A stretch of 64,000 nucleotides of DNA, taken from Lingula anatina (taxonomy: Eukaryota; Animalia; Brachiopoda). This document shows, piece by piece, positions 36,501 through 62,593 of this stretch (positions are counted from its first letter, which is position 1; the number at the start of each line of letters is the position of its first letter). The notes under the pieces were generated by a model that was given only the letters and a program-made list of their open reading frames with translations, had not been told where the DNA came from and made no database searches. Location: positions 7,378,001 to 7,442,000 of the forward strand of contig CM120642.1 in NCBI GenBank assembly GCA_051362555.1, given 5' to 3'. The position numbers were made by a program, and so were the translations under genes.

Positions 36501-39500
36501 GCACATCAGTTTTGCAATTCAGCAATACAGTTTGCCATGGAACTAATCTAATCCCTGGATCAAATTTGCTATTAACCATGAGGACATAAAGGGTTTGGTG
36601 CCTAGACTTAGTGCGACAATAGATCATAGAAATCATGCATGATTACCATGACTAACATTTTATCAAAATTTACTTTGTCTCCTCTGTGATATATAGATTT
36701 GAAAGGTTTTCATAATTTTAAAACAGACACAAGGCAGCAAAGCTGTCAAATGTACAGACAAAAAGCAGAAAATAACAAGGCAGCAAAGCTGTCAAATGTA
36801 CAGACAAAAAGCAGAAAATAAAGTGCACAAAATAGGATACTGTCAATTCTGATGCAATAATGTATTATGCTTTACTGCATAGCCAACATCAAATTTTAAT
36901 TCTGCATAACAGTGGATTAGGATGAAAGTAAAATGTGTAACAAGCATTAGACCGAGTTCCCATACCTAGATCAATCTAACAGGATCAATCCAACTCCAAG
37001 GGGTTTCTCACTAAATTGCTTTCAGCTTAAGTGGCTTAGGATTCTGGCATGCCAGTTTCAGTAGGCGTGACAGACAGCTAAGCCACTTAAATTGATTGCA
37101 ATTTAGCGAGAATTTCCTTGGAGATAGATCGATCCACAGTTAGCATGATAGGGTCTGGAAATAGTCCCTAAGGCTTCAGGCTGATAAGAGTTAAACTTTG
37201 GAAATGCCAGAATGAGATAAAGTGAAAATTTCACAAACAAAAAAAAATTGCTTAGACTCAATAAAAAAAAAATATATATATATATATATAATTTAATAGA
37301 GCTGTTTTTTTAATTTGGGCTGTATGTCAATCCTAAGAATCATTCTTGTATAGAATATGTTACAAAGTAACAGTACAGGGCTCCTGGTGGATGGGAGTGA
37401 TAAGTCACATCTTGAAAATGCCAGTTTGAAAAATTAAAAAAGAAAAAATTACAAAAAATGTTCCACTAAAGCTGACATTCGGTCTAGCTGCATTACCATG
37501 ATATAAATCATCCAACTTGAGTTTAAACAGTGTAAACAACTCGCAGAAATATAATATATTTTGTTTTACCACAAAAAAGACAGTCATAGCTATTATTCTG
37601 ATATCTGAACTTGTCATCAGACCATGTGACCTCCATAGATGGCTATACTTTGAAATAATTTCTTAAGAGATTATAACAAAAAAAAAAAAAAACACTTTTT
37701 AGAAAAAAAATTAATTATTTGCCAAAAAGAACAATTATTATCCCTTTAACTGCAAAGTCAAGTTGCAAATATTGCACAACAGGTAGTATCAATAAAAGTG
37801 AACTGTTACATGCCCTTGAGAGTTATAAGTCCCACACTGAAAATGCCAGTATGTGAAGGATCATCATCATCAGTCTGTCCTTCGTTACCGAAGATGACTG
37901 CCTGAGTTGAGCTAGAGGCCCTTCATAGGCAGGCCCTCACGTGGGCTTTGAGACCAGCTTGGGATTTGCAGAAGCACTGACATCTGTTGCATTGAAAGTT
38001 GCATGGTCTGGCTGGTGAGTGTCGACGATCATGGGAACGTTGGTATTCTTGCTGGCGCTGGTCTTCAACAGCTGACAGGGTCTTTTTAAGTAGGGCATGC
38101 CATTGCTCTCTCTGGAGAGCCTCTGCCTCCCAGGTGTCTAGTGGAATGCCAGCCCTCTTCATGTGGCGCCTTATAACATCCTTGAAGCGTAGAGCTTGTC
38201 CACCATGGCTCCTTTTTCCTTGGTATAGTTCAGAGTACATGTATAGTACAGCTTTTGGCAATCTGTCATTTGTCATCCGACAGACATGTCCAGCCCAACG
38301 GAGCTGTGACACAGTTATTAGGGCTTCAGCACTGACTGTGTGAGCACGTCGAAGTACTTCAACATCAGAAATATGGTCTTGCCACTTGATATTGAGGATT
38401 GCACGAAGATGACGGAGTTGGAGTCTTGTCAAAGCCTTTATGTGTCTGCGATAAAGAGTGATACACTCGGTGGAATAGAGGAGGCAAGGAATGACTGCTG
38501 CTAAATAAACTTTCACCTTGGTATTTATGGTGATGTCATGTGAAGGATAAAAATTTCACAAAATGTACAACAGAATAACTTGGTCAATAAGATTACAGTT
38601 TCAGGACCATATGTCAGAGTTCAAATTCACATAATGAAAATCCCATTATGTGAAAAATGATGACAGTGCATAAAATAATATAATTACACAATGTTTAAAG
38701 ACATAAAAACCAACAAAACTGCTTATGTGGAAAAATAGAAAATGCACAGTGCTTCTGGTAGATGGGAGTTGAAAGTGACATCTTGAAGATGCTAGTGTTT
38801 GAAAAGTAATTAAAGAAAATGTAAAATAAAACATAACAAAAAATTCCAATAAAGCTACTATTCAAACTTTTTATCTAGCTGTGTAATTACTAACATGATA
38901 TGAATAACCCTTTTGAGTTTGAGAATAATAACGCACTGTTATTCATCTTTAGCATTAATGTAAGCCTTACACAAAGTTTTTCTTTTGTAAAATTATTTTC
39001 AATATTAAATAACATTTACCTGCATAATAATCATCAATTCCTAATTATGTGACACAGTTAAGAGAGCTAAACCTATGGGACTTTACAATGAAATCTCAAC
39101 GTGTATTTATGTAATCTTATTGAATGGCCACTTGAAAATTAATTAAGCAAAGTACTTTATAACCCTAAAATAACTTGAAAATTAATTAAGCAAATTACTA
39201 TTTAACCCTGAATTAACATACTGCCCGCTATCCATATACATTTATTGCACCATATAGCACTCTGTATAACTGCATTGCTTCCTAAACAGAAAACAATCAC
39301 ACTGGTTTTCCAACACAAGCTGCACTTCAGTCTTATGAAACTTTTCAGTAAGTTTGAGTATCATAAGTAATATGGTTTTCTCTTAATCGCTATCCTGGCA
39401 GCAGTGTCCAAAATAGGATTTTCCTCAACTTTCATGTAATATAACATAATACTAAACAGCATAATGACCGTCAATTTAAAAAATAAAAGTATCATGGATA

Positions 39501-43440: not shown

Positions 43441-45924
43441 GTCCTCCCCACTGAAATGTGAGGTGCCACAAATCACAACTGTTACCAACAAATTTTTCTT
43501 TATATATGTATACATAGACATAAAAAAACATATAAATTAATGATCATACCATCACATACAGTATACGTTATGTTCTCTTCAATACAATGGGGCCTCGTTT
43601 CATTGGGCCATTTGAATCTTAAACATTTCCATAAGAAAACAAAACACTTCTCACAAAACAACGAAGATTTAATTTAAATTCAACTGACTATGACAATCAT
43701 TTTAAATCACATATCTCTACTAGTACTTAAACTGAACATAATCATTTAACCATTTAGGCAAGGAGTTATAACAGAAGGAGATTACACGCGTGGGGGCAGA
43801 GCCCGTATTACGGTCTCTCATTGGTCGGAATGAATAGAACCCAGAGAACAATGGGTTCCTATCTCTGTTACGCTTTCTGTTACTCTCGTTTAAATCTCGT
43901 TTGTCAGAATAGGTGCCTTCGTCTGTCGTTTGGAGAGGACACAAACAGAAACGCAGTCAAAAGTTTCTCAAAATGAGAGAATTACAGAGTGCAGAGGATA
44001 TAACGTTGGATAAGGTTATCAAAAAACAGGTAAGTGCTTTTAAATGCATAACTACTCGAAATATGAAGATAAATTGCAACTTTTATGCCGTGGGATCTCA
44101 CTGTGTAAGTGTCCAGCTCCACGTCGATCTCGCGTGGTGGTGTGTGGAGAATAAATATTGCACGAAAAATATTTCCCACTCATAACAAGTGCTTAAAAAT
44201 ATAGTATCAGACGAAGAAAGTTTGGTCTTTATGCAGTTGTAATTGTTTAGTTATTTGTGGCAATAGCATAGAATAAAACTTAGGTGCACTTTCAGTAGCC
44301 GAATAACAAGCAGATGCATAAGCCGCCATCTTGTTTATGTTTCGAAAAAAAATAACTCCAAAAGACATTTTCCTCCTACTTTTTCAGGCCTTCCCAACTA
44401 CCAGACTCGGCACCTACGGGTCCAGAAAAAAGCGGTTTATCAGACCACACTGCCCGTTTACAAGGTGTGTGTCAGATCGCATTACAGAGTATCAGCCACA
44501 ACACCGATTTTGCCTGGTGCGCGATGTGATAGCAATGATCCTAAGCGGGGTTGGAAAGTAGTGCATCTCATCTAGATTCATGCGCTGCTGCAATTTTCTC
44601 TGTTTATGCTAAAATCTGACAGTACCGCAATTTTTAACATAAAATTTAGGTTCGGACCAAGGAGTTATAACAGAAGGAGATTACACGCAAGCCTTTCTAT
44701 TGTCCGATGTCTGTTACGGTGGGCGGAGCTAGCTACGGGGGGCCTCCGGTCTCAAGGTTTCGTCTGCGTCGCTCTCCTCAGCTTGGAGATAAATTTCATA
44801 TGCGTTATTTCGCGTTAGAATTCGAGATCAGTAATGTCAAAGCGCCGCTGTATGCTGACGATTTTTTTCACAGGTAATTATTTGGACGATGTGCTGGAAG
44901 GGAACGATATCATAGAAAGCGATTATAAGGTGGTGACTGAGGATGGTCGCCATGAGCTTTTTTTAGTCGGTGATAGATGGCTTTTTTATGGCACAACCCG
45001 GTGAAAAATCACCAAGGAGAAGTCAAAAGAAGCGTCCCAACCGGTGTACCTAATTACCGTCGACAACCGAGCACAACCGAACACTACCGTCCACAAGCAC
45101 TAATTACCGTCCACAAGCAATAAATACCGCACACAAGCGTCCTCCCATATGAAATAGTTGTAAAATTAACTAATAGTTAGAAATTTAACATAAGATGGTG
45201 CTTTATTGAAAAAAAAAACAGGTCTGCAGACGTTTTCAAAACGGAGGACCTCACTTAATTGTCACATTTGTTGCATTGAAAACTACGTTAAACGATGTTA
45301 ACTGTTGTATGCTAGGCTTCCAAAATGCAAAAAGGGGAAAAACGTTCATAAGTATACAGTAATACATATCGTTACGCGTAAAAGCTACATTAGTGCACTG
45401 AATGCGGTTATTTCAAGCAATATCAGATGAGAAATAAAACAATTGTTTATTGACAATTCAGGTCCGACAAATGTGCATAGCAATAGCAATAGTCGGTGTT
45501 ACTTTTCTGTCAAAACCTCGATCATTTTCTAACATGTGAAAACTTTGGGACGGGAGTAAAGATCTTGTTGAAATGTTGTTTATTAGCCAAAATATAATCT
45601 GAAATTTTGTAAGATGTTCATAAAAGTAAGTGTCTTGTCCTGACGAAAGATTTAAAGTCTTATTACTTTTGATCATCCCAGGTCCGGTAAGTTGTTGGCA
45701 ATCAGGGCCGTCCAGTCGCATTCCTCCGATAAACTTTTAAGTGCAATTAGAATTATGATTACCTTCGAGGCCAGCCCGTCGCATGCCTCCCCTAAACTTA
45801 TTTCTAGTCGTATTTGATCATCTACGGACAGTTTAAGTCAATCAGGGATACGCCGGTCGCGCGACAATTATAATAATTGCAACCTAAGTGTGCAGAATAT
45901 TAAAAGCAAGTGCAAGTGTATCCA

Positions 45925-46030
45925 TCACCCTAACCGTGTGTCGAAAGCAAGGCGGACCGAGTATTCTCCTCTTGGCGACTCTCACATCAAGCGATTGTGG
46001 GACGATCATTTGCGAGCCCCAAGTGAATTT
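45925..46030 (+). pseudogene. Truncated inverted copy of the SGNH gene 5' end in the MULE left arm
   Basis: LGDSHIKRLWDDHLRAPSEFRRHMHP versus LGDSHIRRLRDDHLRAPGECRRHMDP. Confidence 0.85.
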
Positions 46031-46512
46031 AGACGACATATGCATCCACACCAACCACCACTAAATTTTACGTTTAATAAGACGTCTTTGCAATAAAAAG
46101 CTTATAATTTTTTTCATTGATTTTATTGTAATTTCCTTAAAACTGCAGGTTATTGGTTTAACAAAATGAAAATATTTCACCTGATGTTTTACGAAATTAA
46201 AAGTTTTCACCCGAAGCTTTCTGACGTTAAACAGATCCATTACTGATGTTGGTTCGTGCATTTGACAGCTTTGTTTCAATTTATCTTTTATTTCATTCTA
46301 TACTTCAATTTTTTCATTATGAATACGTCACGACCTTCTTTTTATGTTTTTACGTTTAAGGCTTGATGTCTATGCCTTATTTATTCACGTAAATACTTTA
46401 TTCTTTATTTTCATAAAGGATCAATTTATTTATTATTATAATTTTTTGGCTATATTTTTTCTCTAACCCGTGTCAGATCGAGCTAAACAGACGATGCCGA
46501 CAATTGACGTTA

Positions 46513-46650
46513 CCAGTTACCTTGCAAACAGCGTGTGCCACCTGTAAAAGGTGCTGATAATATCAGTTACCATGTAAACAGAGCGTGTGCCACCTGTAAA
46601 AGATGCTGATATTATCAGTTACCACGTAAACAGAGCGTGTGCCACCTGTT
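46513..46650. repeat. About 3 copies of a 52-53-bp repeat upstream of the transposase
   Basis: cagttacc..aaacagagcgtgtgccacctgt. Confidence 0.8.
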
Positions 46651-47062
46651 AAGGAGTGTCACGAAAGGCAATAGGAGATGAGTATTATTATTTATTCGAT
46701 TGTGACCCATCTAAAAAAAATTCAGAATAAGTATTTTACACATTTTGTACATTAATGCATGTAATATTCATAAATACAAAGAATTATACGATAGAAATTA
46801 TATAAAACTGCTTAATAAAGCTATGGAAACTAATCGATATAATAAAAGAAAGAATAAAAGATTTATGCTTGATAATGTGTACTTAATTCATGTAGGTGCA
46901 GGTATATATATACATAATCGTGAAAAATTATATACACTGTAACACATTGTATGACAAAAACTTTTGTAACGTATACACATCGTTTGCTTTTTGAGTTTAT
47001 TAAAAAATGGAACTGTTGTTCCGTGGCATGTCTTGTTTATCCCACGTGTCAAAACGATCTAG

Positions 47063-47299
47063 CCTGTGCTGACGTGTCACAATACTGATAAGATCAGTTG
47101 CCATGGGTAAAGAGTAGGTGTCCCCTGTCAATTTCTTTTGAAATGTCTTTGATTATGCATGGGCAGGTAAGTTGATTGCCCCTGTGCTGACGCGTGACAC
47201 TACTGATAAGATCAGTTGCCATGGGTATAGAGTAGGTGTCCCCTGTCAATTTCTTTTTTAATACCTTTGATTATGCATGGACAGGTAAGTTGACTGCCC
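47063..47299. repeat. Two copies of a 118-bp repeat immediately upstream of the transposase promoter
   Basis: cctgtgctgacg..tactgataagatcagttgccatgggta..tttgattatgcatgg. Confidence 0.85.
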
Positions 47300-47348
47300 A
47301 CGCTTAACCTAATCTTGCTTCATTACGTATGTTTTTGTCTGAAAATCC

Positions 47349-47387
47349 TATAAAAGCCACGCTCAATCCAGTACCTGCCTTCATTCA
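47349..47387 (+). promoter_or_regulatory. Putative TATA box and initiator of the transposase gene
   Basis: TATAAAAG at 47349, TCATTC about 32 bp downstream, ATG at 47458. Confidence 0.55.
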
Positions 47388-47457
47388 TAGCTTTGGCTCC
47401 CTGAATATACATCCGAGTGATTCCACGAACCCGTGATTCGAAATCTTTACCGCAAAG

Positions 47458-50400
47458 ATGCCTAAGAGATATCCATGTGGCGATTGCAGGAAGAACACTG
47501 CCTACACGGTGTCCATATTATGCGAGTCCTGTAATTCCTGGTTTCATAAAGATTGCCAGGGGTTAACAGAGGCAGATTTCAAGGCTTTGGGGCAAAGTAG
47601 GCTAGGGTATTGGTGCAAAAGTTGTAATTCAGCCCCAGGTGGAGATTATGACTTTCACCAAGCCCTGGTACGCCTTAAAGGTTTTGCCCCAAATAACCTT
47701 GAAGAAGCAGTACGACAAGAAGGCATGTTCATGAAGATTTTTGGGGTAAGTACAACTCACTTTCAAGGCAGCCTTCACCATTTCTCTGCTGGTGAAGGCC
47801 TTAAAGTAGATTCTACTGCAGTGGACATTTTGGTGTTATGTAGGGGCGTCCCAAAAGGTAGAAAACCAATCCGCGTCTCTGGTGACGGCAGTTGTTTGTT
47901 CAATTCTGTTTCTGTTGCTCTTTGTGGTTCTGAGAGATTGGCAAATGAGCTTCGCGTCCGTTGCAGTGTGGAAATGTTTGAAAATGAACGGTTCTATAAG
48001 CTACAGCACACTGACAATTACTGGGAGGCCATGAATGCCGATTATAATGACGCGCGAATGGATTGTGTCAAAGGGAACGAATCCACTGGATGGACAATAC
48101 ACGCTCTTTCTTCTGTTGTCGGTCGCCCAATAACATCTGTCTATCCTCCTATGAACGGATTACTCGATCCGGCAGTGGGATGCATGGGACAAACCTTTCA
48201 GCCAAGGCTACGGTTAAACAATTGCATGACCCCAGTAGTTGTTATGTGGTCCCGTTGCGGTGGCACCGGCGAGGGTAGTGGTATTTGGACTACGGACCAT
48301 TTCGTTCCGCTTATTGAGTGTACGAATAAGGAGATCAGTTCCCCAGTACATGATCTTGAAGATCCTGAAACACCACCTCAGAAGCGACCACGTAAAGACG
48401 CATCCTCCATCTCCATGAGCCCCCCAGAGACCGACTCGGCACCCACTGACGTCATAGATATTTCCGACGACGAAAAGGGCGACATTGTTTCCATCATAGA
48501 TATTTCTGACGACGAAAACGGCGATTTTGTTTTTACTCCCGATTCAAACTCCGAAGGCGGAAGCGACTTGCCAGAAATGCTTGGAATAAGCATTACTAAA
48601 TTTCAAACACCAGAAACCCTGTTAAGTATAGTTTGCGACCCACCGAAAGTCGAATCCAACATACCGCGTGGAATAAAAGAAAACGTCTATTTTGTTGTAA
48701 ACAACAGTGACAATCGAAAACGACATGAAAGGGGGGCAAAGAGTCAGTTTACAGATGACTGTGGGGTATGGGATAGCAAGCGTTCCTCTACAAAGTCGAG
48801 CCATTATATTCATACAGAAGGACGTTTAAAATTCGTCATTGAGAAAGAAGGAAGTTACGGAACTATCGTTCGAAAAGCCTGGACACCGTTGGTCCCTCAA
48901 CCATCGCCATGGGAAATCCTCACCATGAAACACCATTACTCTTCTTTAAAAAGACAGAGTGCCTTTAAGAGAAGAATCACCTGGCTTGAAAAAGTGCCCG
49001 ATTCAGTGAAAGAGAAAAGGCCCTTATCGGATTCTGTGGCAATAGCTGAATACGTAGGGACTTGGCCGCAAATTGTTTCTGTTCATGGCAACGTCAAAAA
49101 ATCTAAACGTGAGTATGTCAAAGTGCCACACCAGCTTAAAGGACGCGTTAAGGAACTCGTGAAGGATGCTCCAGCTAGGGAAGTGTATTCGAAGTTGGTA
49201 ACGGAAGAACCCGAAAACGCGCCGCGAGACTTAAAGCAGGTCCAAAATATAAAATACCAGCGTAATAGAAACGAGATGCCCCACCAAAACCGTCGTAATA
49301 ACGCCGATGACATTCAACATATTCAATCCATGATGATGGACCATGAAATGATTCAAGAAATAATCCAAAGTAAAACCACCGGCAAGAAACAATGTAAGCC
49401 ACCTTCTATCATACTTTACACAGAAGATCAGTTAGAGGAGTTACGCGCTATATGCTCAGGAGGGAAGACCAGCAGCTGTATTGGAGTTGACAGAACTTTT
49501 AATATTGGAGCCTGCTACGTCACGACAGTTGTGTACAAAAACGCGAAACTTATTCGACAAAATACGCAGCAACCGCCCATTTTCTTAGGGCCAATTTTCT
49601 TACATTGGGACGGAGAATTTGAGACGTATCAACGCTTTTTTTCTCATCTACAGGCGAAAATAGGTAAAGATCTCGTAAACAATAACGATAGCGCGTTCAC
49701 CTTGGCCTTTTCAAATCTAATTGTTGGTTCGAACGAAGAGAAAGCGCTTACGAACGCGTTGCAAATGTGCTTTCCAAACGCGACGTTCCTGTTGTGCTCG
49801 CGCCATTTGGAGGAAAATATGCGACGTCATCTCACACAGTTAAACGTGCACGATAGAGAAAAACAAGAAATAGTTAGGGACGTATTCGGAAGACAGGGGC
49901 TTCTCATAAGTGAAGACGAGTATGACTTTGATAACAAAGTTTTAAACTTACAAACCAAATACGAAACTTCGGCTCCGGCGTTTGGACCTTACTTTTCCGG
50001 GTTAGTTCCAAAATTACGCCAAAAAGTTTTTATTCCTTCCTTACATAACAAATGTGTACCGTATTCATGGACAAACAACGCCTGTGAGTCCATGAACAAT
50101 ATTTTAAAACTCAGCATAAAGTGGAAGCCGCAACGGTTACCCGAATTAGTTGACAAACTTTACCAAATAGTGAAACTGCAGTCGGCCGATGCCAGGAGGG
50201 CAATTTATGGTTGTGGCAATTTTGAGCTAGCTCCGTGGATGCAGAGATTTCGCGTTGCGAATGCCGCGTGGGCTACAAAAAGTGACACCCAAAAGAATAT
50301 GTTGTACAAAAAATTTATACAACATCGATCCAGCTCACCCGGAACTCATCCCATTGTGTCTACAGATGGAAAGCTGAAAATACCGAACACCCCCACCACA

Positions 50401-50460
50401 GCCAAAAAGCCAGGGCAGCGAAAGAGATGCAGAAGCGAAAGGGCCCAACCGCAAAAATGA
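47458..50460 (+). CDS. 1000-aa PHD finger + vertnin-like OTU cysteine protease + MULE DDE transposase
   Basis: PHD CGDC..CESC..HKDC..WCKSC; OTU GDGSCLFNSVS...DHFVPL; MULE GVDRTFN, GSNEEKAL (N at the second D position), CSRH (CxxH), TNNACESMN; single uninterrupted ORF within TIRs. Confidence 0.85.
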   Translation: MPKRYPCGDCRKNTAYTVSILCESCNSWFHKDCQGLTEADFKALGQSRLGYWCKSCNSAPGGDYDFHQALVRLKGFAPNNLEEAVRQEGMFMKIFGVSTTHFQGSLHHFSAGEGLKVDSTAVDILVLCRGVPKGRKPIRVSGDGSCLFNSVSVALCGSERLANELRVRCSVEMFENERFYKLQHTDNYWEAMNADYNDARMDCVKGNESTGWTIHALSSVVGRPITSVYPPMNGLLDPAVGCMGQTFQPRLRLNNCMTPVVVMWSRCGGTGEGSGIWTTDHFVPLIECTNKEISSPVHDLEDPETPPQKRPRKDASSISMSPPETDSAPTDVIDISDDEKGDIVSIIDISDDENGDFVFTPDSNSEGGSDLPEMLGISITKFQTPETLLSIVCDPPKVESNIPRGIKENVYFVVNNSDNRKRHERGAKSQFTDDCGVWDSKRSSTKSSHYIHTEGRLKFVIEKEGSYGTIVRKAWTPLVPQPSPWEILTMKHHYSSLKRQSAFKRRITWLEKVPDSVKEKRPLSDSVAIAEYVGTWPQIVSVHGNVKKSKREYVKVPHQLKGRVKELVKDAPAREVYSKLVTEEPENAPRDLKQVQNIKYQRNRNEMPHQNRRNNADDIQHIQSMMMDHEMIQEIIQSKTTGKKQCKPPSIILYTEDQLEELRAICSGGKTSSCIGVDRTFNIGACYVTTVVYKNAKLIRQNTQQPPIFLGPIFLHWDGEFETYQRFFSHLQAKIGKDLVNNNDSAFTLAFSNLIVGSNEEKALTNALQMCFPNATFLLCSRHLEENMRRHLTQLNVHDREKQEIVRDVFGRQGLLISEDEYDFDNKVLNLQTKYETSAPAFGPYFSGLVPKLRQKVFIPSLHNKCVPYSWTNNACESMNNILKLSIKWKPQRLPELVDKLYQIVKLQSADARRAIYGCGNFELAPWMQRFRVANAAWATKSDTQKNMLYKKFIQHRSSSPGTHPIVSTDGKLKIPNTPTTAKKPGQRKRCRSERAQPQK

Positions 50461-50649
50461 AACCAAACTCGCGTAAAATGATGACTGTTTTAAATAGAAA
50501 GAAAAAGAGATAAAAGATATGGGTTACTTTAGCAGTTTCAATAAAAAGAACGCCAAATGATATTTTCCTTATGCTACGTGGTAGCAGTTTCCAAAATCAA
50601 ATCAAATAAATCAGAATGAAATAAATTGGAATAGAATAAAATAAAATAA

Positions 50650-50952
50650 ACGCGTAAAGTGATTTTTCCCCTTCTGCTACGTGGTGGGTTACCCTAGCAG
50701 TTTAAATAAAAAAAACGCGTAAAGATATTCTTCCTTCTGCTACGTGGTGGGTTACCCTAGCAGTTTAAATAAAAAGACGCGTAAAGATATTTTTCTTTCT
50801 GCTACGTGGTGGGTTACCCTAGCAGTTTAAATAAAAAGACGCGTAAAGATATTCTTCTTTCTGCTACGTGGTGGGTTACCCTAGCAGTTTAAATAAAAAG
50901 ACGTGTAAAGATATTCTTCCTTCTGCTACGTGGTGGGTTACCCTAGCAGTTA
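50650..50952. repeat. Five copies of a 62-bp hairpin-containing repeat between the convergent MULE genes
   Basis: ctgctacgtggtgggttaccctagcag at 50674, 50737, 50799, 50861, 50923. Confidence 0.9.
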
Positions 50953-51493
50953 CAATAATAATAAAAATAAACGCATAAGTGCGGCTCTACGACCAGTTTT
51001 ATGAAGTAATTGATATTTGGTATTTCTGACCAGGTATCGGTTTTAAATGATACTAATAAGTGAAGGGATTATCTTTCAGCAATTCCTTGATTGTGTTGCC
51101 TGCGTTTAGGGGGCGGGTTCTTTTCAGATTTGACATTCGGCCCATGTGAAAAGTCTGCGACACTACGACCCTGGACGATAGCTCAGATTGGTAATACGAC
51201 CTGGCTCCTACCAAATTGGAAGCAGATCACTAAGAGTACCCGGCAGTGGTACCAGGGTGCCTCCAAAAGTTGCCTCAGATCAATGAAGACTCATCTACAA
51301 TCAATAAACGGTCCTTTTCAGGACCACCCACTTATCTCAGGAAAGGCTTACAATATGTTCCAACCTACTGACTAGTTGAATGCCTGTCTACTAGGAATGC
51401 CTAGTATGTCCGTTTGAGCTTTAACTGTTGAACAAGTTGGTATAGCTTTTCGATAAATTTGGTGGCCCTGAAAAGGGCCTTTGAAAATTACCC

Positions 51494-52075
51494 TCAAAAT
51501 TGAGAGTTCGAAGAGACAAGGGCTCCCCGAAGACCATCCTCCTTAAAATACGAAGTGTTGGGCCTCCTGAGTCGCGTGTGACTCCAAAAGCGTACACCCT
51601 CTTCATGCAATAAAGCGTCTTTGACTAATGTATTGCATTTCTTGACCGCTTTCATAACGTTTTCATTTGTCCCGGGAGATAGCGGAAGTATCTCTCCAAC
51701 GATGACCTGCCTTACTCCGCATGCCTTCACTCTCCTGGCCAGGTGAAGGAGAACCTGAGCCAGGTCTTCAGGTGCCAGAGTTTTCTTCTTAGAGCTCCTA
51801 CGCCGTGGTGGCAGGAGATCATTCACCCCTAAGTGAATATAGACAATATCAGCTTTGGTTCTTCGTATGATGTCGAAGTGTTGACGGCTACGGTCAAAGT
51901 GCACGGCCGTCAACCCTCCGACACCATACAAGGTAACTTTCGCCGAGCGGAGACAGAATTGAGGATCCATATGTCGTCTACATTCACCTGGGGCTCGCAA
52001 ATGGTCGTCCCGCAACCGCCTGATGTGAGAGTCTCCTAAGATAAGAATACTCGGCCCGTCTTGCTTTCCAGACAT
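51494..52075 (-). CDS. SGNH/GDSL hydrolase-like protein, 193 aa, lacking the block-V His
   Basis: Block I ILILGDSH, block II GVGG, block III HLGVNDL, block V truncated to EDGL-RGALV. Confidence 0.8.
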   Translation of the reverse strand: MSGKQDGPSILILGDSHIRRLRDDHLRAPGECRRHMDPQFCLRSAKVTLYGVGGLTAVHFDRSRQHFDIIRRTKADIVYIHLGVNDLLPPRRRSSKKKTLAPEDLAQVLLHLARRVKACGVRQVIVGEILPLSPGTNENVMKAVKKCNTLVKDALLHEEGVRFWSHTRLRRPNTSYFKEDGLRGALVSSNSQF

Positions 52076-55000
52076 GGTTGGAATGATGGATAACCAACGG
52101 AGGACACTTGCTTTTTATGTATTCAGCACTCTTGGCTCCAAACATCATTGGCTCACGACCGAGGTACCCCTGATTGAAATCATCTTACCAGTCCGTAGAT
52201 GATCAAAGGTAAGTACGATCTGTTTGCCGGGGGCACGCGACGGGCGAACCCCTGATTGTTATCACTTTAACTTAACTCGAAGCTGGTCCTCGGCTGATCA
52301 AAGGTAATTAGCATAAAGTTACCGGAGGCACGCACCCGGCTTATCCCTGATTGTAATCACCTCACCTGTACCTTGATGATCAAAGGCAAGTAAAAATATA
52401 TATACCAGAGGCACACGGTCGACCAACGCCAATCAACTTATCTGCCTCCAGATGATAAAAGGTAATTAGAATTTTAGTTCTGCTTCAACGTTTACCGTTG
52501 GCACGCGACCGACCTACGTCAATCAACTTATCTGTCTTTGAATGATCAAAGGTAATTAGAATTTCAATTTTACTTTAAAGTATACCGGAGGCGCGCCTAG
52601 TCGGCGAATGTTTAAAAGGTCCACTAAAGTGGAATATTAAATTACCGGAAAAGTTCTATTCTATCCATAGTAGATATAAACATTCTTTATGTACGCTTAT
52701 AACCGTCCTTCATTCAATCATTCTAAAAACGAAGTAGGGTGAAACTATGGATTCGTAATATTCTTTTTATTTATTGAAATAACCACATTTAGATATAATA
52801 AGATAAGAGTTAATTTAGCCAATTATAAAATTCGGAAATCATTTTCCTTTCGGAGCAATGTACAGAGTAAAATAATAGAATAATACAATAAATAAATAAA
52901 CTTAGAATTTGGTTTTGAGATTAGATAAAAATGCGTCGCTGCACTTGGATAAAAGCTGTTAAAAAAACGTTACTGCTGTTAAAAGTGCACAAATGTGGCT
53001 TATATTTATACACGTACAGAGACCGTTTTTCCAATAAATCACCATCTTATGCTAAATTTCTAACTATTAGTTGGTTTTACAACTATTTCATACGGGAGGA
53101 CGCTTGTGTGCGGTATTTATTGCTTGTGGACGGTAATTAGTGCTTGTGGACGGTAGTGTTCGGTAGTGCTCGGTTGTGCTCGGTTGTCGACGGTAATTAG
53201 GCACACCCCGTCCCAACTGTGGTTTGTGAAAATGACGTTCAAGTGAACGTCTGTCCTCACTGCCAAAGGACATAATATTAATACATTAACGTTTGGACCC
53301 TCCTGCCCTTGGGTCCCATAAACATATACATTGTGACAGTGCCTACGCTTTGTGTCTGGTTTTAAATTTCTTAAAGTATTTTTTCTCTCACTCGGTATAA
53401 TTTTAATATTATAATGCATTTAATTAAAATTTTAGTCCAAGGTTGAGGCAATGCCACGACACGTCAGTTTACTGAATACTCGTTATAAATTTCTTTTTCT
53501 TGGAAATTTCCCTTTTTTTCAGGATTATTTGACACGTACTAACACTGTTCATATTTGTCGGTAAACAAGTGCACAGTGCTATACATTAAGAATAATTTTT
53601 ATTCATTCATAAATATATTTATGTACAAAATATATCAGAAATTTTAGTATTCACTGAGCTCTTTAAAGTGAAACAAATAAAGATGAGAATATTGAATTTC
53701 AAACTATTATTTACTATATTAACTTAAAATATCTTTTAAGTCAACTCTATACTCAAGCACTCTATACTCTATACTCATGAAAGTAGCATCTGTGAGTAAA
53801 ACCATTTTATTATATCAATAGAAGAACAAAAACAAAAATTTTACACATAAGCAGTAATAAATGAAGTCATAAGAATGATTAAGTTGCTACAGTTTTCCAG
53901 TTTTATGCAGTCTATGATGGCATTTTTTTCAACCGTGCAAATAGAAATAATTATATTCTTTTTTATCTGACTTGCTGATACCAGTCTGTGCCAGATACTA
54001 TTCCACTTACAGGCCAGCAAGGTCTGAGAATCTAATGGGCCGAATGAAAAAAAAATCCTAGAAGATAAAGTGGTTAATTCTTACAAATAGGATGAAAAAC
54101 ATAGGATTTTCAAAAGGTTATTATAGATCAAGACAACACTTAGTAAGAACATTTATAAAATGTAACAGCTGAAAAAATTAACTGGTAAGTAAGCAGTAAG
54201 TGACATCTTTAAAGAAATTTCACTGAAACAGAAATTTCACTGGCAATCAGGTAGACTGTTATACCATGGCACTCAACAATTTATATATAGGTTTTGAATT
54301 TTTTTCCACGTAACAGTAACATAAAATTTATGTCCACTTTTGCAATGTATAGAGTCAGTTAGGTGACTGAAAATATTTTAAAATGTCATAAAGGAGCACT
54401 ATTAATTTAATGCAATCTCTGTTGGCCAGTCTTATCCAGTTTCTTCTCCAAAAAGGACAACTCAAGTGAGAATTTCTTCAGGGCCTTTTCTTCTGCCTTG
54501 CTAATGCCATGCCACTCAGAAAAGAGAGAAACCTGTAGGTTAGAAAAAAAAACATAATAATAGCATTATGAACTACTAGTATCCATGTAGACATTATGGA
54601 ATTATGCAGTGAAGTTTAATGTGTCTTGTTATGACTTGACTGAAATAATGTTCACCACATAAATGAACAATTTACAACTAAATTTACATAGAACATCAAG
54701 ATTCATGATCACAAGCTAATAACCCCAAGAAATTGAAAGAAATTGTACTTATTACAAGAAATTATTTAAATCCGCCCTGGTCCCTACACTTCTGACAGGA
54801 CAAAAAGGGGATTTCAGAGAGGCTGGTTGCTAAAAGGAAAATGCCCAAGGTTGTTGTATTTTGAAAAAAAAAAATTAAAAAGGGTACTGTTGTTAGTGAA
54901 TGTTTAATGCATCTTAGGCATTATGACAAAAGTAACTTACCCCAGACACACTGACCTCCTTTTTTCATTGACATATTTTAATTTTTTCCAGCCTGACCAT

Positions 55001-58000
55001 AATTCATATATTCAATGCAGCCTTCTCCCATATCTATAATAGAAAAAAACTTGAGTAGTGTTAAGATACGCATGTCAAATTCATTATCAATTTTGAGAGA
55101 ATTTCTGTTTCAACACTATGAATGGTGAAATATAAGATGAAATATTTAATTTCAAGTAATGAATAAACCTTAATAGAGTTCTATTCTTTTGTAACCACCA
55201 AGGCAAAGCTTCTTTCTTAAAATGAACAGAAACATCCAAGCTTGCCACCTAACATGCCAAAGTAGTGAAGTATAATTTAAGTAGAGAAGCAAGTACCCCT
55301 TAATTATAGAGGTGTCTTACACAATAAGGTGTGTCTTACACACCTGGACTCAAAGAGAGATGTGTAGTGAGATAACAGGTAAAGTAATTGGTGGAGCCTA
55401 GGTGAACTTAAAACCTTAAGACTTTAAATTAAGAAGCACCAGGATTCATGTGTGTTCTTTTTTCAAAGGTTTAATATGAATTAAAACATATATATGTAAA
55501 AAGAAGACTAAATAAGTTAAAAATAACTAATACCAAAGACACTGTGAAGTCAAACTTCCTGTTAGACCGCCATGATGGAAAATGCTGGGTGGAGGCAAAA
55601 TTTTCCAGTCAAAAAAACTGAACACTTTACTTTAACAACAAAGTTACCACTCCAAAGCCACCCACCATGGTGGGAAGAAAAATGATGACCAACTGTCATG
55701 ATAAGTCTTTTTAGATTTAGACATGAAAAAGGTAAAGGCCAAAATGGTACATTTACCCATAACACTAGAGTAAAAAATTGGTATTCTGAACAAATCGGGT
55801 TATTTTTTTCAAGAAATATTGGAGCAGTATCCATGCAATATATACCACGCCACGACCAAGATGTTCAAGAATCTAAACACACCAAATTTTTTTATAATCT
55901 TGCATTTGAAAAGTACAAAAAGCGGTAAGGCTTTTGGCCGTAACAAGCGTAACACTTTTTGATCGGAACTCTTGAAAATTGTCAATTGTCGTATCCAAGC
56001 TAGACCACATGTAAAATCGCAAAAAAAAAAAAAACAATACTGCTCAAGCAAGTGTGTTGCACACATAACAATTAGTTAAATTTTATGACTTTCATGTGAC
56101 ACAAGTTTCAAAAAGTAGGAGGAAAATGTCTTTTGGAGTAATTTTTTTCGAAATATTAACAAGGCGGCTTAAGCATCTGCTTGTTATTCGGCTACTGAAA
56201 GTGCACCTAAGTTTTATTCTTTGCTATTGCCACAAATTACTTAACAATTGCAACTGTATAAAGACCAAACTTTCTTCATCTGATACTATATTTATAGGCA
56301 CTTGTTATGAGTGGGAAATATTTTTCGTGCAATATTTATTCTCCACACACCACCTCGCGAGATCAACGTGTAGCTGGACACTTACACAGTGAGACCCTAC
56401 GACATAAAAGTTGCAATTTATCTTCATATTTCGTGTAGTTATGCATTTAAAAGCACTTACCTGTTTTTTGAAAACCTTGTCCAACGTAATATCATATAAA
56501 TTCTGTATTTCTCTCATTTTTTAGAAACTTGGGACTCCGTTTCTGTTTCTGTCCTCAAAAATCAACAGACGAAGGCACAGATACTAACAAACGAGATTTA
56601 AACGAGAGTAGCAATTAAGCGTAACAGAGATAGGCATCCATTGTTCTCTGGGTTCTATTCATTCCGACCAATGAGAGACCGTAATACGGGCTCCGCCCCC
56701 ACGCGTGTAATCTCCTTCTGTTATAACTCCTTGTTCGGACATAGCCAATGATGTTTTGTAAATAAGAACTTGCAAACTTATATATTAATTTAGAAAAGTA
56801 GACCTAATTTTGATAGCGGAAGCATATTCTGTCGGGGGTTTTAAATATTTTCATGACTACCGGGATGGACGAGATTGAGGGCAGGGGTAATCCTAGAGAG
56901 GGGTGAGAAACGTCCATTGTTCTCGTCAGCGAGGCTGTCCTTTTTCAGGGTTTGTACGCACGGACAGAAAACTTAAGTATTGTGGGAACGTTACTAATGA
57001 AGCCACTGGTAGTACTAGTAGATATCAGCCTGTAGTCTTGAACAAGCGCCTCGATGACGAGTGAACAGTTGTCAAAAACAAAAGACCCAGGTGTGGAAGT
57101 TCAACTACTGTTCATGCGTGCCGCAACGACCAAATCCAATTGCTCCTCAAGGTCACAAAACAATAACCGGTACTGACGGCTCGGCTCGTCTTAATCATAT
57201 AAGTAGCGCGTTTCCACCCCCTGATTGAGGGAGTCGTCTGTTGTATTCATACGACTCCTACTTGACGAAAACGAGGCGCGATACCCGGATGACAGGTAGG
57301 CGTACAGAATTTGTGATAGGGTATGATACTCTTTTATGCGATCTGACACACACCTTGAAAACGGATAGTGTGATCAGATATACCGGTTTATTCTGGACCC
57401 GTAGGTGCCGAGTCTGGTAGTTGGGAAGGCCTGTTTTTGATACTTGTGTCACATGACAGTCATACAATTTAACTAATTGGTGTGTGTGCAATACATTTTC
57501 TTGAGCAGTATTGTTGGTTTTTTCGATTTTACATGTGGTGTAGCTTGAATACGACAAGGGACAATTTTCACGAGTCCGGATCAAAAAGTGTTACGCTCGT
57601 TACGGCCAAAAGCCTGAACGTTTTTTGCACTTTTCAAATGCGTGATTATAAAAGATTTTGGTGTGTTTAGATTCTTGAACATCTTGGTCGTGGCTTGGTA
57701 TATATTGCATGGGTATTGCTCCAATATTTCTTGAAAAAAATAACCTGTTTTGTTCAGAATAACAATTTTTTACTTTAGTGTTATGGGTAAATGTACCATT
57801 TTTGCCTTTACCTTTTTCGTGTTTAAAACTAAGAAGACTTATCATGACAGTTGGTCATCATTTTTCTTCTCACCATGGTGGGTGGCTTTGGAGTAGTATC
57901 TTTGTTGTTAAAGTAAGGTGCTCAGTTATTTTGTCTGGAAAAGTTTTGCCTCCACCCAGCATTTTCCATCATGGCGGTCTAACGGGAAGTTTGACTTCAC

Positions 58001-59546
58001 AGTGTCTTTGGTATAGTTATTTTAAACTTATTTAGTCTTCTTTTTACATATATATGTTTTAATTCATATTAAACCTTTGAAAAAAGAACACACATGAATC
58101 CTGGTGCTTCTTAATTTAAAGTCTTAAGGTTTTAAGTTCACCTAGGCTCCACCAATTATTTTACCTGTTATCTCACTACACAGCTCCCTTTGAGTCAAGG
58201 TGTGTAAGACACACCTTATTGTGTAAGACACCTCTATAATTAAGGGGTACTTGCTTCTCTACTTTAATTACACTTCAATACTTTGGCATGCTAGGTGGCA
58301 AGCTTGGATGTTTCAGTTCATTTTAAGAAAGAAGCTTTGCCTTGGTGGATACAAAAGAATAGAACTCTATTAAGGTTTATTCATTACTTGAAATTAAATA
58401 TTTCATCTTGCAGTGTTAAAACAGAAATTCTCTCAAAATTGATAATGAATTTTACATGCTTATCTTAACATTACTCAAGTTTTTTTCTTCTATTATAGAT
58501 ATGGGAGAAGGCTGCATTGAATATATGAATTATGGTCAGTCTGGAAAAAGTGAAAAAATGTCAATGAAAAAAGAGGTCAGCGTGTCTGGGGTAAGTTACT
58601 TTTGTCATAATGCCTACGATGCATTAAACATTCACTAACAACAGTACTCTTTTTAATTATTTTTCAAAATACAACAACCTTGGGCATTTTCCTTTTAGCA
58701 ATCAGCCTCTCTGAAATCCCCTTTATGTCCTGTCAGAAGAGTAGGAACCAGGGTGGATTTAAATAATTTCTTGTAATAAGTACAATTTCTTTCAATTTCT
58801 TGGGGTTATTAGCTTGTGATCATGAATCTTGATATTCTTTATAAATTTTGTTGTAAATTGTTCATGTATGTGGTGAACATTATTTCAGTCAAGTCATAAC
58901 AATACACATTAAACTTCACTGCGTAATTCCATAATGTCTACATGGATACTTGTAGTTCATAGTGCTATTATTATGTTTTTTTTCTAACATACAGGTTTCT
59001 CTCTTTTCTGAGTGGCATGGCATTGGCAGGCAGAAGAAAAGGCCCTGAAGAAATTCTCACTTGAGTTGTCCTTTTTGGAGAAGAAACTGGAAAAGAGTGG
59101 CCAACAGAGATTGCATTAAATTAATAGTGCTCCTTCATGACATTTTAAAATATTTTCAGTCACCTCACTGACTCTATACATTTCAAAAGTTGACATAAAT
59201 TTTATGTTACTGTCACGTGGAAAAAAAATCAAAACCTATATATAATTTGTTGAGTGCCATGGTATAACAGTCTAGTTGATTGCCAGTTAAATTTGGACTG
59301 TTTCAGTGAAATTTCTTTAAAGCAGTCACTTACTGGCCCAGTTAATTTTTTCAGCTGTAACATGTACTCCAGTTCATTTTATAAATGTTCTTTAATACTA
59401 AGTGTTGTCTTGATTTATAATAACCTTTTGAAAATCCCATGTTTTTTATCCTATTTGTAAGAATTAGCCACTTTATCTTCTAGGGTTTTTTTTTTCATTC
59501 AGCCCATTAGATTCTCAGACCTTGCTGGCCTGTGAGTGGAATAGTA

Positions 59547-59631
59547 ATAATAATAATTTTATTAACGTCTCACGTTTTAAATAGATAAAACCCACCCTAC
59601 TAAGGGTTATGAGAGACTAAAACCTATACTA
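59547..59631 (-). mobile_element. Tiny retro-type insertion in outer X
   Basis: Absent from inner X; TSD aatagta; (taa)n tail. Confidence 0.6.
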
Positions 59632-62043
59632 AATAGTATCTGGCACAGACTGGTATCATAGCAAGTCAGATAAAAAAATATATATAATTATTTCTATTTG
59701 CACGGTTGAAATAAATGTCAACATAGACTGCATAAAACTGAAAAACTATAGCAACTTAATCATTCTTATGACTTAATTAATTACTGCTTATGTGTAAAAT
59801 TTTGTTTTTGTTCTTCTATTGATATAATAAAATGGTTTTACTCACAGATGCTACTATCATGATGCTTGAGTATAGAGTTGACTTAAAAGATATTTTAAGT
59901 TAATATAGTAAATAATAGTTTGAAATTCAAAATTCTCTTCTTTATTTGTTTCACTTTAAAGAGCTCAGTTAATACTAAAATTTCTGATATATTTTGTACA
60001 TAAATATATTTATGAATGAATAAAAATTATTCTAAATGTTTAGCACTGTGTACTACTTTACCGACAAATATGAAGTGTTAGTGTGTGAAATCCTGAAAAA
60101 AAGGGAGATTTCCAAGATAAAGAAATTTATAACGAGTATTTAGTAAACTGACATGTCGTGGCATTGCCTCAACCTTTGATTAAAATTTCACTTTAATGCA
60201 TTATGATATTAAAATTATACCGAGTGAGAGAAAAAAATACTTAAAGAAATTTAATACCTACCACAAAGCTTAGGCACTGTCTCAATGTATATGTTTATGG
60301 GACCCAAGGGCAGGAGGGTCCAAACGTTTATGTATTAATATTATGTTCTTTGGCAGTGAGACGTTCACTTGAATGTCATTTTCACAAACCACAGTTGGGA
60401 CGTTTTCTTTTGACTTATCCTTGGTGATTTTTCACTGTGTTGTGCAAAAGAAAAGCCATCTATCACCGACTCAAAAAAACTCATGGCGACCATCCTCAGT
60501 CACCACCTTATAATCGCTTTCTATGATATCGTTCCCTCCCAGCACATCGGCCAAATAGGGAAGTTTGGCGTAGTCAAACGTTTATGGCCTCTTTGCAACC
60601 CCACAATTTGAAATGTGTGCACTATTTGTCTGGAATTATAATTTAAATGTTGATACTTCTGGCGCACACTAAGTTTATATCATCTATCAACATTATTCAA
60701 TGTTTATCAGTAATACGCTTTATTTCTTTTTATTAATGTGACTTCCAATAAAAGCGGCCATCATCGGCCAAATTTCAAACATCACACTTGAGTCTGTTAC
60801 ATTACTAACGCGGACATATCCTAATTCTTACATCAACTTAGATCAAGGAGACATAAAACTACCTGTAAAAAAATCGTCAGCATACAGCGCCGCTTTGACA
60901 CTACTGATCTCGAATTCTAACGCGAAATAACGCATATAAAATCAATCTCCAAGCGGAGGAGAGCGACCCAGACGAAACCTTGAGACAGGAGGCCCCCTAT
61001 AGCTAGCTCCGCCCACCGTAACAGACATCGGACAATAGAGAGGCTTGCGTGTAATGTTATAACTCCTTGATTTAGGTGAGCCTGCATTACGTCTGGGGTT
61101 TTTACGTGGAAGAGCACCTGTTATCACCTAGCTTTTTCTATTATTGATTTGATCAGTGCTGGACTGCATAACTTCCTGTTCACCTTTAGTTTGTGGAGAC
61201 TGATTATCTTGGAAACACAATTCACGAGTCTGACCCCCTGAATAACTATTCTCCCACACCGACTGGGGCACATTTTAAGAGTGCGTTTCCTTATTTCGTC
61301 CCACGGAATCATGTATTTGATCAACATGCCTGCGCCAAGTACCATTTTCTACCTGTACTCGATATGACACTGGTCCGGTTTTCTCAGTAATAACCCCCGG
61401 AACCCACTTTGCATAAGCGCTCGCACGGTAATCGCCAACATCCACATGTCGTCCGGGCTTAAAGTCACGCAGCACACTCGATCTGCGACTCGCCACGTCC
61501 ACCTGTTTGTTTCGAACGCGTTGGTCAATGCTAGGTTTGATTAAGTCTAAACGAGACTGTAATTTCCGACCTAAAAACAGGTGTGCGGGAGTTTCACCTG
61601 TTGTGGCATGGGGTGCATTTCTGTATGCATTTCTCATCGGTTCATTTTCCTTCCGACTATAGCCTTCATAGCGGCCTTAAAAGACTGCACAAAGCGCTCA
61701 GCTAGCCCATTCGAGCTTGGGTGATACGGTGCACTCTTCACATGTTTAATGCCGTTCACCTTTATAAAATCGGCAAACTCCTCTGAGGAGAATTGCCGCC
61801 CATTGTCACTGAACAAGACATTGGGTACTCCGTTACATGAAAATATCTCGCGCATGACCTCGATGGTCTTTCCGGCTGTGGTCTCTCGCATCGGTACCAC
61901 TTCAGTCCATTTCGAATGCGCGTCTACCACAATCAGAAACATCGAGTTCAAAAATGGGCCTGCAAAATACACGTGTATGCGCTCCCATGGTCTACCAGGC
62001 CATTCCCAAGGGTGAATCGGAGTTGCCGCTGGGGAACGTTTTG

Positions 62044-62593
62044 TTAAGTCCCAAACTTCGTCAGTCAGACTTTACGTGAAAATAATGTTACTTTAGATAA
62101 CGCGCCGGTTCTTGGGCCTTAGTGTTGTGCGCCCAGCTGATCCAATAAAACGAACAAGATTCTCATTCGACACAAATGGAAATTTAATACTGTCTTTTGG
62201 AAAATATACAGAGTTTTCTTCTACATAGTAACGGTCAGTCCAAAATGTATAATGATATCGCCAGAGCCAAAATACGATATGAAATAACCTTAAAACAGGG
62301 CAGCCTTTATAGATCATTCAGGAATTTTAATAACCAGGAAGAAATAACACTTGACTGAGCGCAGTCCCTTTGTCTCAGGCTCTACCACAACTCAGTCACC
62401 GTGTTCCCTGGATCATCATTATCCGCCCTAGCCTTCAAAGGCATCTAAATTTTATCTCGTGCCATGTGCCCCGGTCACGATCATTCCTGAATGTCTATTG
62501 ACTGCCCCCTTCTAAGCTTATCTTAGGATATGAATATTATTTTAATTAATTATTTATATCAATTATAAAATACCCGAAGTGGTATTTTACACC
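62044..62593. mobile_element. Unclassified 550-bp insertion splitting the Gypsy integrase zinc finger from the core
   Basis: KSCEGCREH|KRSPAATPIHPWEWP rejoins across it. Confidence 0.7.

What the first reader, a model, noticed from the sequence alone, without database searches (positions are those of the whole stretch)
45042..53208. Animal Mutator-like transposon with MuDR-style convergent genes: PHD-OTU-transposase plus SGNH hydrolase
Seen: a complete 8.2-kb element with TIRs, a 9-bp TSD and an empty site in the window, carrying two inward-pointing ORFs. Established: maize MuDR has convergent mudrA/mudrB, and some MULEs carry Ulp1-type proteases or anti-silencing genes; SGNH esterases are better known from LINE ORF1 proteins. 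Inference: here an SGNH hydrolase occupies the mudrB position, and the element may carry its own reader/eraser kit (PHD, deubiquitinase, acyl-hydrolase) to counter silencing or help targeting. I do not know of a described family with this combination.
Basis: partly seen in the sequence, partly recalled or inferred. Interest (0 to 1): 0.85.

Follow-up and report, generated by a model that had tools for sequence, protein, structure and literature searches.

The report
Mutator transposon carrying its own esterase
An 8.2-kb cut-and-paste transposon of an invertebrate carries, facing its transposase, a second gene for a predicted ester-cleaving enzyme best known from retrotransposons; this copy is broken in both genes, but differences among sister copies suggest the family has kept the enzyme gene as a likely helper.

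Summary
The anatomy is real: 8,167 bp, ~172-bp TIRs, 9-bp TSD, empty site at 60394-60402, a 1,000-aa PHD-OTU-DDE transposase (+) and a convergent 193-aa SGNH ORF (-). PHD-OTU-MULE transposases are widespread and an OTU-bearing MuDR is published (MuDR-6_HM). The SGNH gene is not clade-wide: 0 of 80 related loci, 14 long enough to show it. Within this species it looks native: diverged sister copies cover it, 11 of 15 listed differences are synonymous (5.0 expected; biased sample), and its upstream repeats carry the TIR motif. Its family profile matches the zebrafish LINE ORF1 esterase best. A chromatin 'eraser' role is unsupported; a lipid/membrane helper role is likelier but untested. Nine paper searches found no MULE with an SGNH gene; Repbase was not searchable; two unchecked scan notes report other MULE-SGNH pairings. 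New variant of a known kind.

The parts
45033..45041 (.). Left target-site duplication, 9 bp (CGTCCCAAC)
45042..53208 (+). Whole MULE copy, 8,167 bp
45043..45214 (+). Left TIR, built of 10- and 20-bp units; motif CTAATTACC at 45050 and 45100
45650..46050 (+). Decayed inverted copy of the SGNH upstream repeats and first ~38 codons (77% identity, 1-bp gap in the coding part)
46514..46649 (.). 52-bp tandem repeat, 2.7 copies
47063..47299 (.). 118-bp tandem repeat, 2 copies, upstream of ORF1
47458..50460 (+). ORF1, 1,000 aa, one exon: PHD finger - OTU protease - disordered linker - Mutator-family transposase
47476..47625 (+). PHD finger (aa 7-56)
   Evidence: Pfam PF00628 E 4e-5, 23.9 bits against cut-off 24
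47881..48303 (+). OTU protease domain; catalytic Cys146 and His281 intact
   Evidence: PF02338 E 5e-4; Foldseek DUBA, A20, OTUD3; residues
49489..50088 (+). DDE core: D678, N759 (Asp in homologues; codon at 49732), C780-x-x-H783, E877
   Evidence: Foldseek top hit ISCth4 transposase E 3e-7
50639..50958 (.). 62-bp tandem repeat, 5.1 copies, between the two genes; each unit has AATAAA on the + strand
51494..52075 (-). ORF2, 193 aa SGNH hydrolase: S16, G54, N85, D180 present; block-V His lost in an in-frame gap at 51531/51532
   Evidence: (table 5c)
52165..52596 (-). Five diverged 80-95-bp repeat units upstream of ORF2; three carry the TIR motif CTAATTACC
53026..53207 (-). Right TIR; motif CTAATTACC at 53132 and 53192
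53209..53217 (.). Right target-site duplication
60394..60402 (-). Empty site in an inverted paralogue of the flanking host repeat

Best explanation
This is a decayed copy of an animal Mutator-family cut-and-paste transposon whose family likely carries a retroelement-type SGNH esterase as a selected second gene, which would help transposition by acting on lipids or lipid-modified proteins rather than on chromatin. Shown: TIRs, 9-bp TSD, empty site, both ORFs, their folds and this copy's two active-site defects. Established: a Mutator DDE enzyme binds the TIRs, excises the element and makes a 9-bp staggered insertion. Inferred: an ancestor of an already PHD-OTU-bearing MULE took up the esterase, probably from the retroelement pool, into its right arm; the arm's TIR-motif repeats became its upstream region; selection has kept the reading frame since sister subfamilies split. 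Inferred by analogy with the ZfL2-1 esterase: the small basic protein (pI 10.3) binds anionic membranes and removes acyl groups, which could help the transposase or its mRNA reach germ-line nuclei. PHD as chromatin reader and OTU as de-ubiquitinating or self-processing protease are inferred from fold only. This copy could move only with a transposase supplied by another copy.
For: Structure. Mutator fold and OTU fold; SGNH fold: (pLDDT 88.8). Best PDB sequence hit of the family profile is the ZfL2-1 ORF1 esterase 4c1b, E 2e-10, just ahead of PAF-AH, E 5e-10. Sister copies: 4 of 4 DNA runs cover the SGNH ORF and show variant letters in the ORF, its upstream repeats and 3' region; one contig joins a transposase stretch (49316) to the intergenic repeat (50677) in 2 of 4 runs; one contig in run X6 has 40 extra letters at 51532/51531 that, read by eye, give in-frame D-G-L-H. 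Listed differences in the SGNH ORF: 7 of 8 synonymous in DNA (2.9 expected, p 0.004); 11 of 15 with RNA rows added (5.0 expected, p 0.002), 3 of the other 4 being K/R swaps. CTAATTACC: 7 of 7 window hits lie in the element, 4 in TIRs and 3 upstream of ORF2 in right-TIR orientation; 0.006 expected in that 955-bp stretch, though the three are units of one repeat. No TSD-like or own termini were seen around ORF2, and no Ngaro/LINE coding sequence adjoins it. Lipid binding and no HDAC activity for the ZfL2-1 esterase: PMC3905857 passages.
Against: No contig spans both ORFs, so co-residence in other copies is not directly shown; no genome was available. The synonymous count rests on the 40 best-supported of 656 DNA rows and 40 of 146 RNA rows, a biased sample and not a dN/dS. 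SGNH is absent from 80 of 80 related loci (14 have at least 1.7 kb downstream), so the gene is dispensable for the clade. Some sister copies break the gene (168-bp skip over the start codon in 2 of 4 DNA runs; a 1-bp deletion and a 98-bp duplication in RNA run X17). RNA depth over both ORFs is 0-5 with mixed strands, so expression of an intact gene is not shown. No - strand AATAAA lies in 50461-51500. Nothing here tests substrate or role; the 4c1b and PAF-AH scores are nearly equal.
Confidence: 0.55

Rival explanations
1. Passenger: the SGNH ORF is a recently captured retroelement or host fragment (Pack-MULE-like) that rides along without function; the synonymous excess was inherited from its donor or reflects several captures.
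For: Absent from 80 of 80 related loci; broken in this copy and in some sisters; little RNA; SGNH ORFs are common in retroelements that could donate them (PMC5408684, PMC9210276, PMC3905857 passages).
Against: Variant copies share the same upstream repeats and 3' region, those repeats carry the TIR motif, and differences among copies are mostly synonymous. Summed contig depth over ORF2 is of the same order as over ORF1 in 4 of 4 runs, with no sign of an abundant separate donor family (depth is a weak measure).
Confidence: 0.2
2. One reading: PHD, OTU and SGNH form an anti-silencing kit; the SGNH protein removes acyl marks from chromatin or silencing proteins, in the way VANC counters silencing of VANDAL elements.
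For: PHD and an OTU domain with intact catalytic residues are present; ORF2 has a basic stretch (RRRSSKKK) that could be a nuclear signal (sequence; untested); second MULE genes can be anti-silencing (PMC6446971 passage).
Against: PHD-OTU transposases occur without SGNH; the ZfL2-1 esterase was inactive in a histone deacetylation assay; SGNH enzymes cleave esters, while lysine acyl marks are amides (general knowledge).
Confidence: 0.12
3. Nested insertion: ORF2 belongs to a separate element (Ngaro, LINE, Penelope or Helitron remnant) inserted in this one copy.
For: SGNH ORFs are part of Ngaro, CR1/RTEX, Penelope and fish Helitron elements.
Against: No RT, tyrosine recombinase or Rep ORF next to it; diverged copies in 4 of 4 DNA runs share its surroundings; a mirrored relic is in the left arm; TIR motif upstream.
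Confidence: 0.05
4. The gene is kept because it benefits the host germ line or the element's transmission between cells or hosts, as proposed for texim genes in fish Helitrons, not because it acts in transposition.
For: Platyfish texim SGNH genes in Helitrons are testis-expressed, and the authors leave both readings open (PMC4021074 passages); membrane passage has been proposed for GDSL ORFs.
Against: Low copy, insertion-polymorphic element with little RNA in four runs of unknown tissue.
Confidence: 0.08

Closest known systems
Animal MULEs with protease/PHD domains: Hydra MuDR-6_HM (OTU), hydra and lancelet MuDR with Ulp1, Rehavkus (PHD)
   Same: Mutator-type DDE transposase with PHD and cysteine-protease domain; 9-bp TSD; long TIRs (PMC6446971 Table 1; PMC2836005 passage)
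   Different: All are listed with one ORF; MuDR-6_HM is listed without TIRs; none with an SGNH gene. Whether this transposase falls in the MuDR-6_HM clade could not be tested (no reference sequence held).
Maize MuDR (mudrA/mudrB), yeast Mutyl (mutB), Arabidopsis VANDAL/Hiun (vanB, vanC)
   Same: Two-gene MULE; convergent layout with tandem repeats between the genes (convergence of mudrA/mudrB is recalled, not from a call)
   Different: Second gene here is a recognisable enzyme, unrelated to the listed second genes; animal host
ZfL2-1 ORF1 esterase (PDB 4c1b) and SGNH ORFs of CR1/L2/RTEX, Penelope/Terminon, bdelloid LTR and Ngaro elements
   Same: SGNH fold, S-G-N-D/H blocks, basic charge; top PDB hit of the family profile
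   Different: Stand-alone ORF without coiled coil, in an element with no RNA intermediate
texim SGNH genes in fish Helitrons (PMC4021074)
   Same: SGNH gene carried by a DNA transposon of an animal
   Different: Rolling-circle element, intron-containing genes; here a TIR cut-and-paste element and a single-exon ORF
Ginger1 and Helitron OTU domains (PMC2836005)
   Same: OTU protease fused to a transposition enzyme
   Different: C-terminal in Ginger1; here N-terminal, after a PHD finger

Membership tests
Mutator/MULE superfamily | 8-11-bp TSD | tested here: met
   9 bp, with empty site; range from PMC6446971
Mutator/MULE superfamily | Long TIRs | tested here: met
   About 172 bp, 7 mismatches and one indel
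Mutator/MULE superfamily | Mutator-type DDE domain with C-x-x-H motif | tested here: met
   PF10551 E 0.012 here, to 1e-7 in homologues; CSRH at 780-783; Foldseek top hit ISCth4
Autonomous (active) MULE copy | Intact D-D-E triad | tested here: not met
   N759; D in 20 of 20 aligned homologues and 72 of 72 loci where the motif was found, of 80
MuDR-6_HM group (group 14 of PMC6446971) | Transposase clusters with MuDR-6_HM | not testable with these tools
   No Repbase sequence held; motif DRTFN had 0 hits in the 3 supplement files held
MuDR-6_HM group (group 14 of PMC6446971) | OTU domain, one ORF, no TIRs as tabulated | tested here: inconclusive
   OTU met; this element has TIRs and two ORFs
Rehavkus | PHD finger, 9-bp TSD, minisatellite before 3' TIR, one ORF | tested here: inconclusive
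   PHD, TSD and repeats present, but two ORFs; phylogenetic placement not tested
SGNH hydrolase superfamily | Flavodoxin-like SGNH fold | tested here: met
   PF13472 E 1e-7; Foldseek E 4e-8, TM 0.67
SGNH hydrolase superfamily | Catalytic S, G, N, and D-x-x-H | tested here: inconclusive
   S16, G54, N85, D180 present; His absent in this copy, present by eye in one sister contig and in 37 of 44 homologues
SGNH hydrolase superfamily | Esterase activity | not testable with these tools
   Needs an assay
Ngaro retrotransposon | SGNH ORF after and overlapping a tyrosine-recombinase ORF, with RT and split direct repeats | tested here: not met
   No such ORFs in the element; layout from PMC9210276
Pack-MULE | No transposase; neutral host gene fragments between TIRs | tested here: not met
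   Full transposase ORF; near-complete cargo ORF with synonymous excess
VANDAL/VANC-type anti-silencing system | Second gene relieves silencing of its own element | not testable with these tools
   No functional data

The most novel reading that the evidence does not exclude
Animal Mutator transposons have repeatedly recruited the retrotransposon esterase as a working accessory enzyme. Because a cut-and-paste element has no RNA particle to package, the enzyme's shared role across mobile elements would then be something else, such as de-acylating the transposition enzyme or a host restriction factor, or opening a membrane route to germ-line nuclei. The TIR motif upstream of the gene would put it under transposase control.
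Probability: 0.25. Interest if true: 0.75.

Novelty: new variant of a known kind. Interest (0 to 1): 0.5.

Why it matters
SGNH esterases recur in LINEs, Penelope, LTR, Ngaro and Helitron elements, and their role is unknown; the leading idea is membrane targeting of the retrotransposon RNA particle (PMC3905857). A selected esterase gene in a TIR DNA transposon would test that idea from outside, since there is no such particle, and as a separate gene it can be dropped from a transposition assay without touching the transposase. It also adds an animal example with a recognisable enzyme to the old question of what second MULE genes such as mudrB do.

Tried and rejected
No host genome is held, so copies could not be counted or aligned. 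Word-based homologue search with ORF2 found nothing among 191 candidates; HMMER over representatives found 45 relatives at 27-45% identity, none with genomic context; of 10 looked up, 2 clusters carry names, all 'hypothetical protein' of Branchiostoma belcheri. Search for longer fused forms gave 2 hits, neither with transposase, RT or recombinase Pfam domains; only the top 7,992 candidates were scored, so this is weak. Viral contigs: no relative of either protein. Prokaryotic genome contigs: none. The protein Atlas gave no result. No RNA holder was listed for the element. Run X9 has no contig over 49464-50071; no joint explains it in the rows shown, so nothing is concluded. Earlier-findings look-ups by sequence and place were blank. 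The outer inverted repeat of L032 has no 9-bp TSD and may be another element, so it is not counted as a second complete relative. Rejected: nested Ngaro/LINE insertion; Pack-MULE; 'active complete element'; PHD+OTU as a novelty. The transposase differences listed (4 of 10 synonymous, p 0.25, plus one double-hit codon left out) are mostly private to this copy and fit neutral decay.
Full report
OBSERVATION. The element spans 45042-53208. The TIRs (45043-45214, 53026-53207) differ by 7 substitutions and one 10-bp unit in about 172 bp. The 9-mer CGTCCCAAC flanks both ends and occurs once, with both flanks continuous, at 60394-60402 on the - strand. That empty site lies in an inverted paralogue of the flanking sequence, which is itself a high-copy repeat: contig depth there is about a hundredfold that inside the element, and empty junctions appear in 3 of 4 RNA runs and 4 of 4 DNA runs. 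ORF1 (47458-50460, +) and ORF2 (51494-52075, -) face each other across a 62-bp tandem array.

ORF1. Pfam gives PHD (E 4e-5), OTU (5e-4) and MULE (0.012), all under the curated cut-offs. The AlphaFold model (mean pLDDT 73.7) matches the ISCth4 transposase first (E 3e-7) and the OTU deubiquitinases DUBA, A20 and OTUD3 next; that ISCth4 is a Mutator-family IS256 enzyme is recalled. OTU Cys146 and His281 are intact. The second catalytic Asp is Asn here, against Asp in 20 of 20 aligned homologues and in 72 of 72 loci where the motif was found, of 80. Near-identical contigs in the DNA runs have one unlisted difference in 49669-50330, which may or may not be this site. The architecture is widespread: 24 homologues including Pinctada, Tubulanus and Styela proteins; PHD+OTU+MULE in 3 of 6 scanned homologues; OTU region in 31 of 80 metagenome loci. 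In print, MuDR-6_HM of Hydra is tabulated with an OTU domain and Rehavkus with a PHD finger (PMC6446971, section 6 read whole), and OTU/Ulp1/PHD domains are described for Ginger, Mutator and Helitron proteins (PMC2836005 passages; PMC1702500 passage). This half of the finding is not new in kind.

ORF2. Pfam Lipase_GDSL_2 E 1e-7; model pLDDT 88.8 and SGNH fold. It belongs to a family of 45 mostly unnamed proteins at 27-45% identity, whose profile hits the zebrafish ZfL2-1 ORF1 esterase best (4c1b, E 2e-10), closely followed by PAF-AH. Blocks I-III and D180 are present, but the His is not; 37 of 44 homologues have D-x-x-H near the end. One contig of run X6 has 40 more letters at 51532/51531 (table 5c); read by eye they give an in-frame D-G-L-H and 14 more residues in all, so the window copy has an in-frame deletion. 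Both genes of this copy are therefore disabled at the active site.

IS ORF2 NATIVE TO THE FAMILY? For: (a) all 4 DNA runs laid show variant letters across the ORF, its upstream repeats and its 3' region, and a contig with a diverged transposase stretch joins to the intergenic repeat in 2 of 4 runs. (b) Of the differences listed inside ORF2, 7 of 8 in DNA and 11 of 15 with RNA rows are synonymous, against 2.9 and 5.0 expected (p 0.004 and 0.002), and 3 of the 4 others are K/R swaps. The only other frame scoring 11 of 15 is the opposite-strand frame that shares third positions; no + strand ORF of 80 aa covers this stretch. The rows are the best-supported 40 of 656 and 40 of 146, so this is a hint, not a dN/dS. 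(c) The TIR motif CTAATTACC occurs 7 times in the window, all in the element, three of them in the repeats upstream of ORF2 and in right-TIR orientation. (d) The left arm holds a decayed mirror image of those repeats and the first 38 codons, and contigs in 2 of 4 runs join the left arm (45422, 45433) to 52686 on the opposite strand, suggesting longer mirrored arms in other copies. Against: no contig spans both ORFs; some sisters break the gene; RNA depth is 0-5 with mixed strands, and the best-covered RNA (X17) comes partly from a frameshifted copy.

DISTRIBUTION. An SGNH profile found nothing in 80 of 80 related loci (best E 1.9). The control recovered 10 of 10 held-out homologues and 20 of 20 half-length fragments. 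Only 14 of 80 loci have 1.7 kb or more after the transposase and 24 have 1 kb, and all are distant (25-50% identity). L007 shows both TIRs, made of similar ACCGCAAGC units, and no SGNH. So the esterase is a lineage-specific addition to a broad clade. Two unchecked notes of this scan describe an SGNH domain fused to a different MULE transposase (e1-7274972) and an intron-containing SGNH second gene in a MULE (e1-9944855) in other genomes. I could not test them; they suggest repeated recruitment and are not counted as support.

MECHANISM. Transposition by the Mutator DDE route follows from established knowledge. For ORF2 I favour a lipid-directed helper. The one characterised TE esterase hydrolyses esters, binds anionic phospholipids through surface charge, and was inactive in a histone deacetylation assay (PMC3905857 passages). 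ORF2 is likewise basic (34 K/R against 19 D/E, pI 10.3; homologue median 9.1). A DNA transposon has no RNA particle to assemble, so the likely targets are membrane access or acyl groups on proteins; this step is inference.

WHAT IS KNOWN. SGNH ORFs are reported from CR1/L2/RTEX and Penelope, bdelloid LTR elements and Terminons (PMC5408684 and PMC6431247 passages), Ngaro (PMC9210276 passages) and fish Helitrons (PMC4021074 passages). Nine full-text searches listed no paper describing a MULE with an SGNH gene; I saw most listings as titles and abstract starts only. Table 1 of PMC6446971 lists none; its 3 held supplement files have 0 hits for SGNH, and its alignment was apparently not among them. 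A 2026 arthropod MULE survey has 0 hits for SGNH, OTU or PHD in its main text (PMC13359780; supplements not read). PMC3597677 had nothing relevant. Repbase Reports and Dfam could not be searched, and a Repbase entry with this pair may exist.

VERDICT. Real feature; MULE membership met; new variant of a known kind. Probability that ORF2 is a selected family gene is about 0.7; the combined reading with a lipid- or acyl-directed helper role 0.55. Interest 0.5.

Noticed in passing
window 43759-61069: Large inverted duplication: 44658-45041 plus 53209-56114 mirrors 57434-61069 at 91-92%. The repeat has about a hundredfold higher contig depth than the MULE, begins near 44658 with varied flanks in RNA reads, and is transcribed. 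Its family was not identified.
   Followed up: partly
window 45650-46050: Mirror relic of the SGNH upstream repeats and 5' coding region in the left arm; with the right arm it could form a long hairpin RNA or supply an inward promoter towards ORF1 (inference).
   Followed up: partly
window 8859-10604 (+): 581-aa uninterrupted ORF that looks by eye like a transmembrane adenylate/guanylate cyclase half; not scanned.
   Followed up: no
window 24413-25639 and 26530-27102 (-): ORFs that look by eye like COR and Roc parts of a ROCO protein; not scanned.
   Followed up: no
window 13371-15233: 146-bp satellite, about 12 copies, with inverted dispersed copies near 30184-30375 and 31682-31924.
   Followed up: no
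window 20679-22139: 878-bp tandem duplication with 100% identity over the blocks shown; recent duplication or assembly artefact.
   Followed up: no
window 37923-38555 (-), 61275-62071 (-): LINE reverse-transcriptase C-terminal fragment and Gypsy-like integrase fragments, by eye.
   Followed up: no
L007 2-351 and 7777-8169: Related PHD-OTU MULE whose long TIRs are arrays of ACCGCAAGC units (18 and 20 copies), resembling the ACCGTCCACAAGC units of the window TIR; no second gene found.
   Followed up: partly
window 49316-50677 (runs X3, X6): A sister copy skips 1,360 bp including the whole catalytic region: an internal deletion derivative.
   Followed up: no
P0069: 2,341-aa protein with several SGNH stretches and a weak OSK (Oskar) match, related to the ORF2 family.
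   Followed up: no
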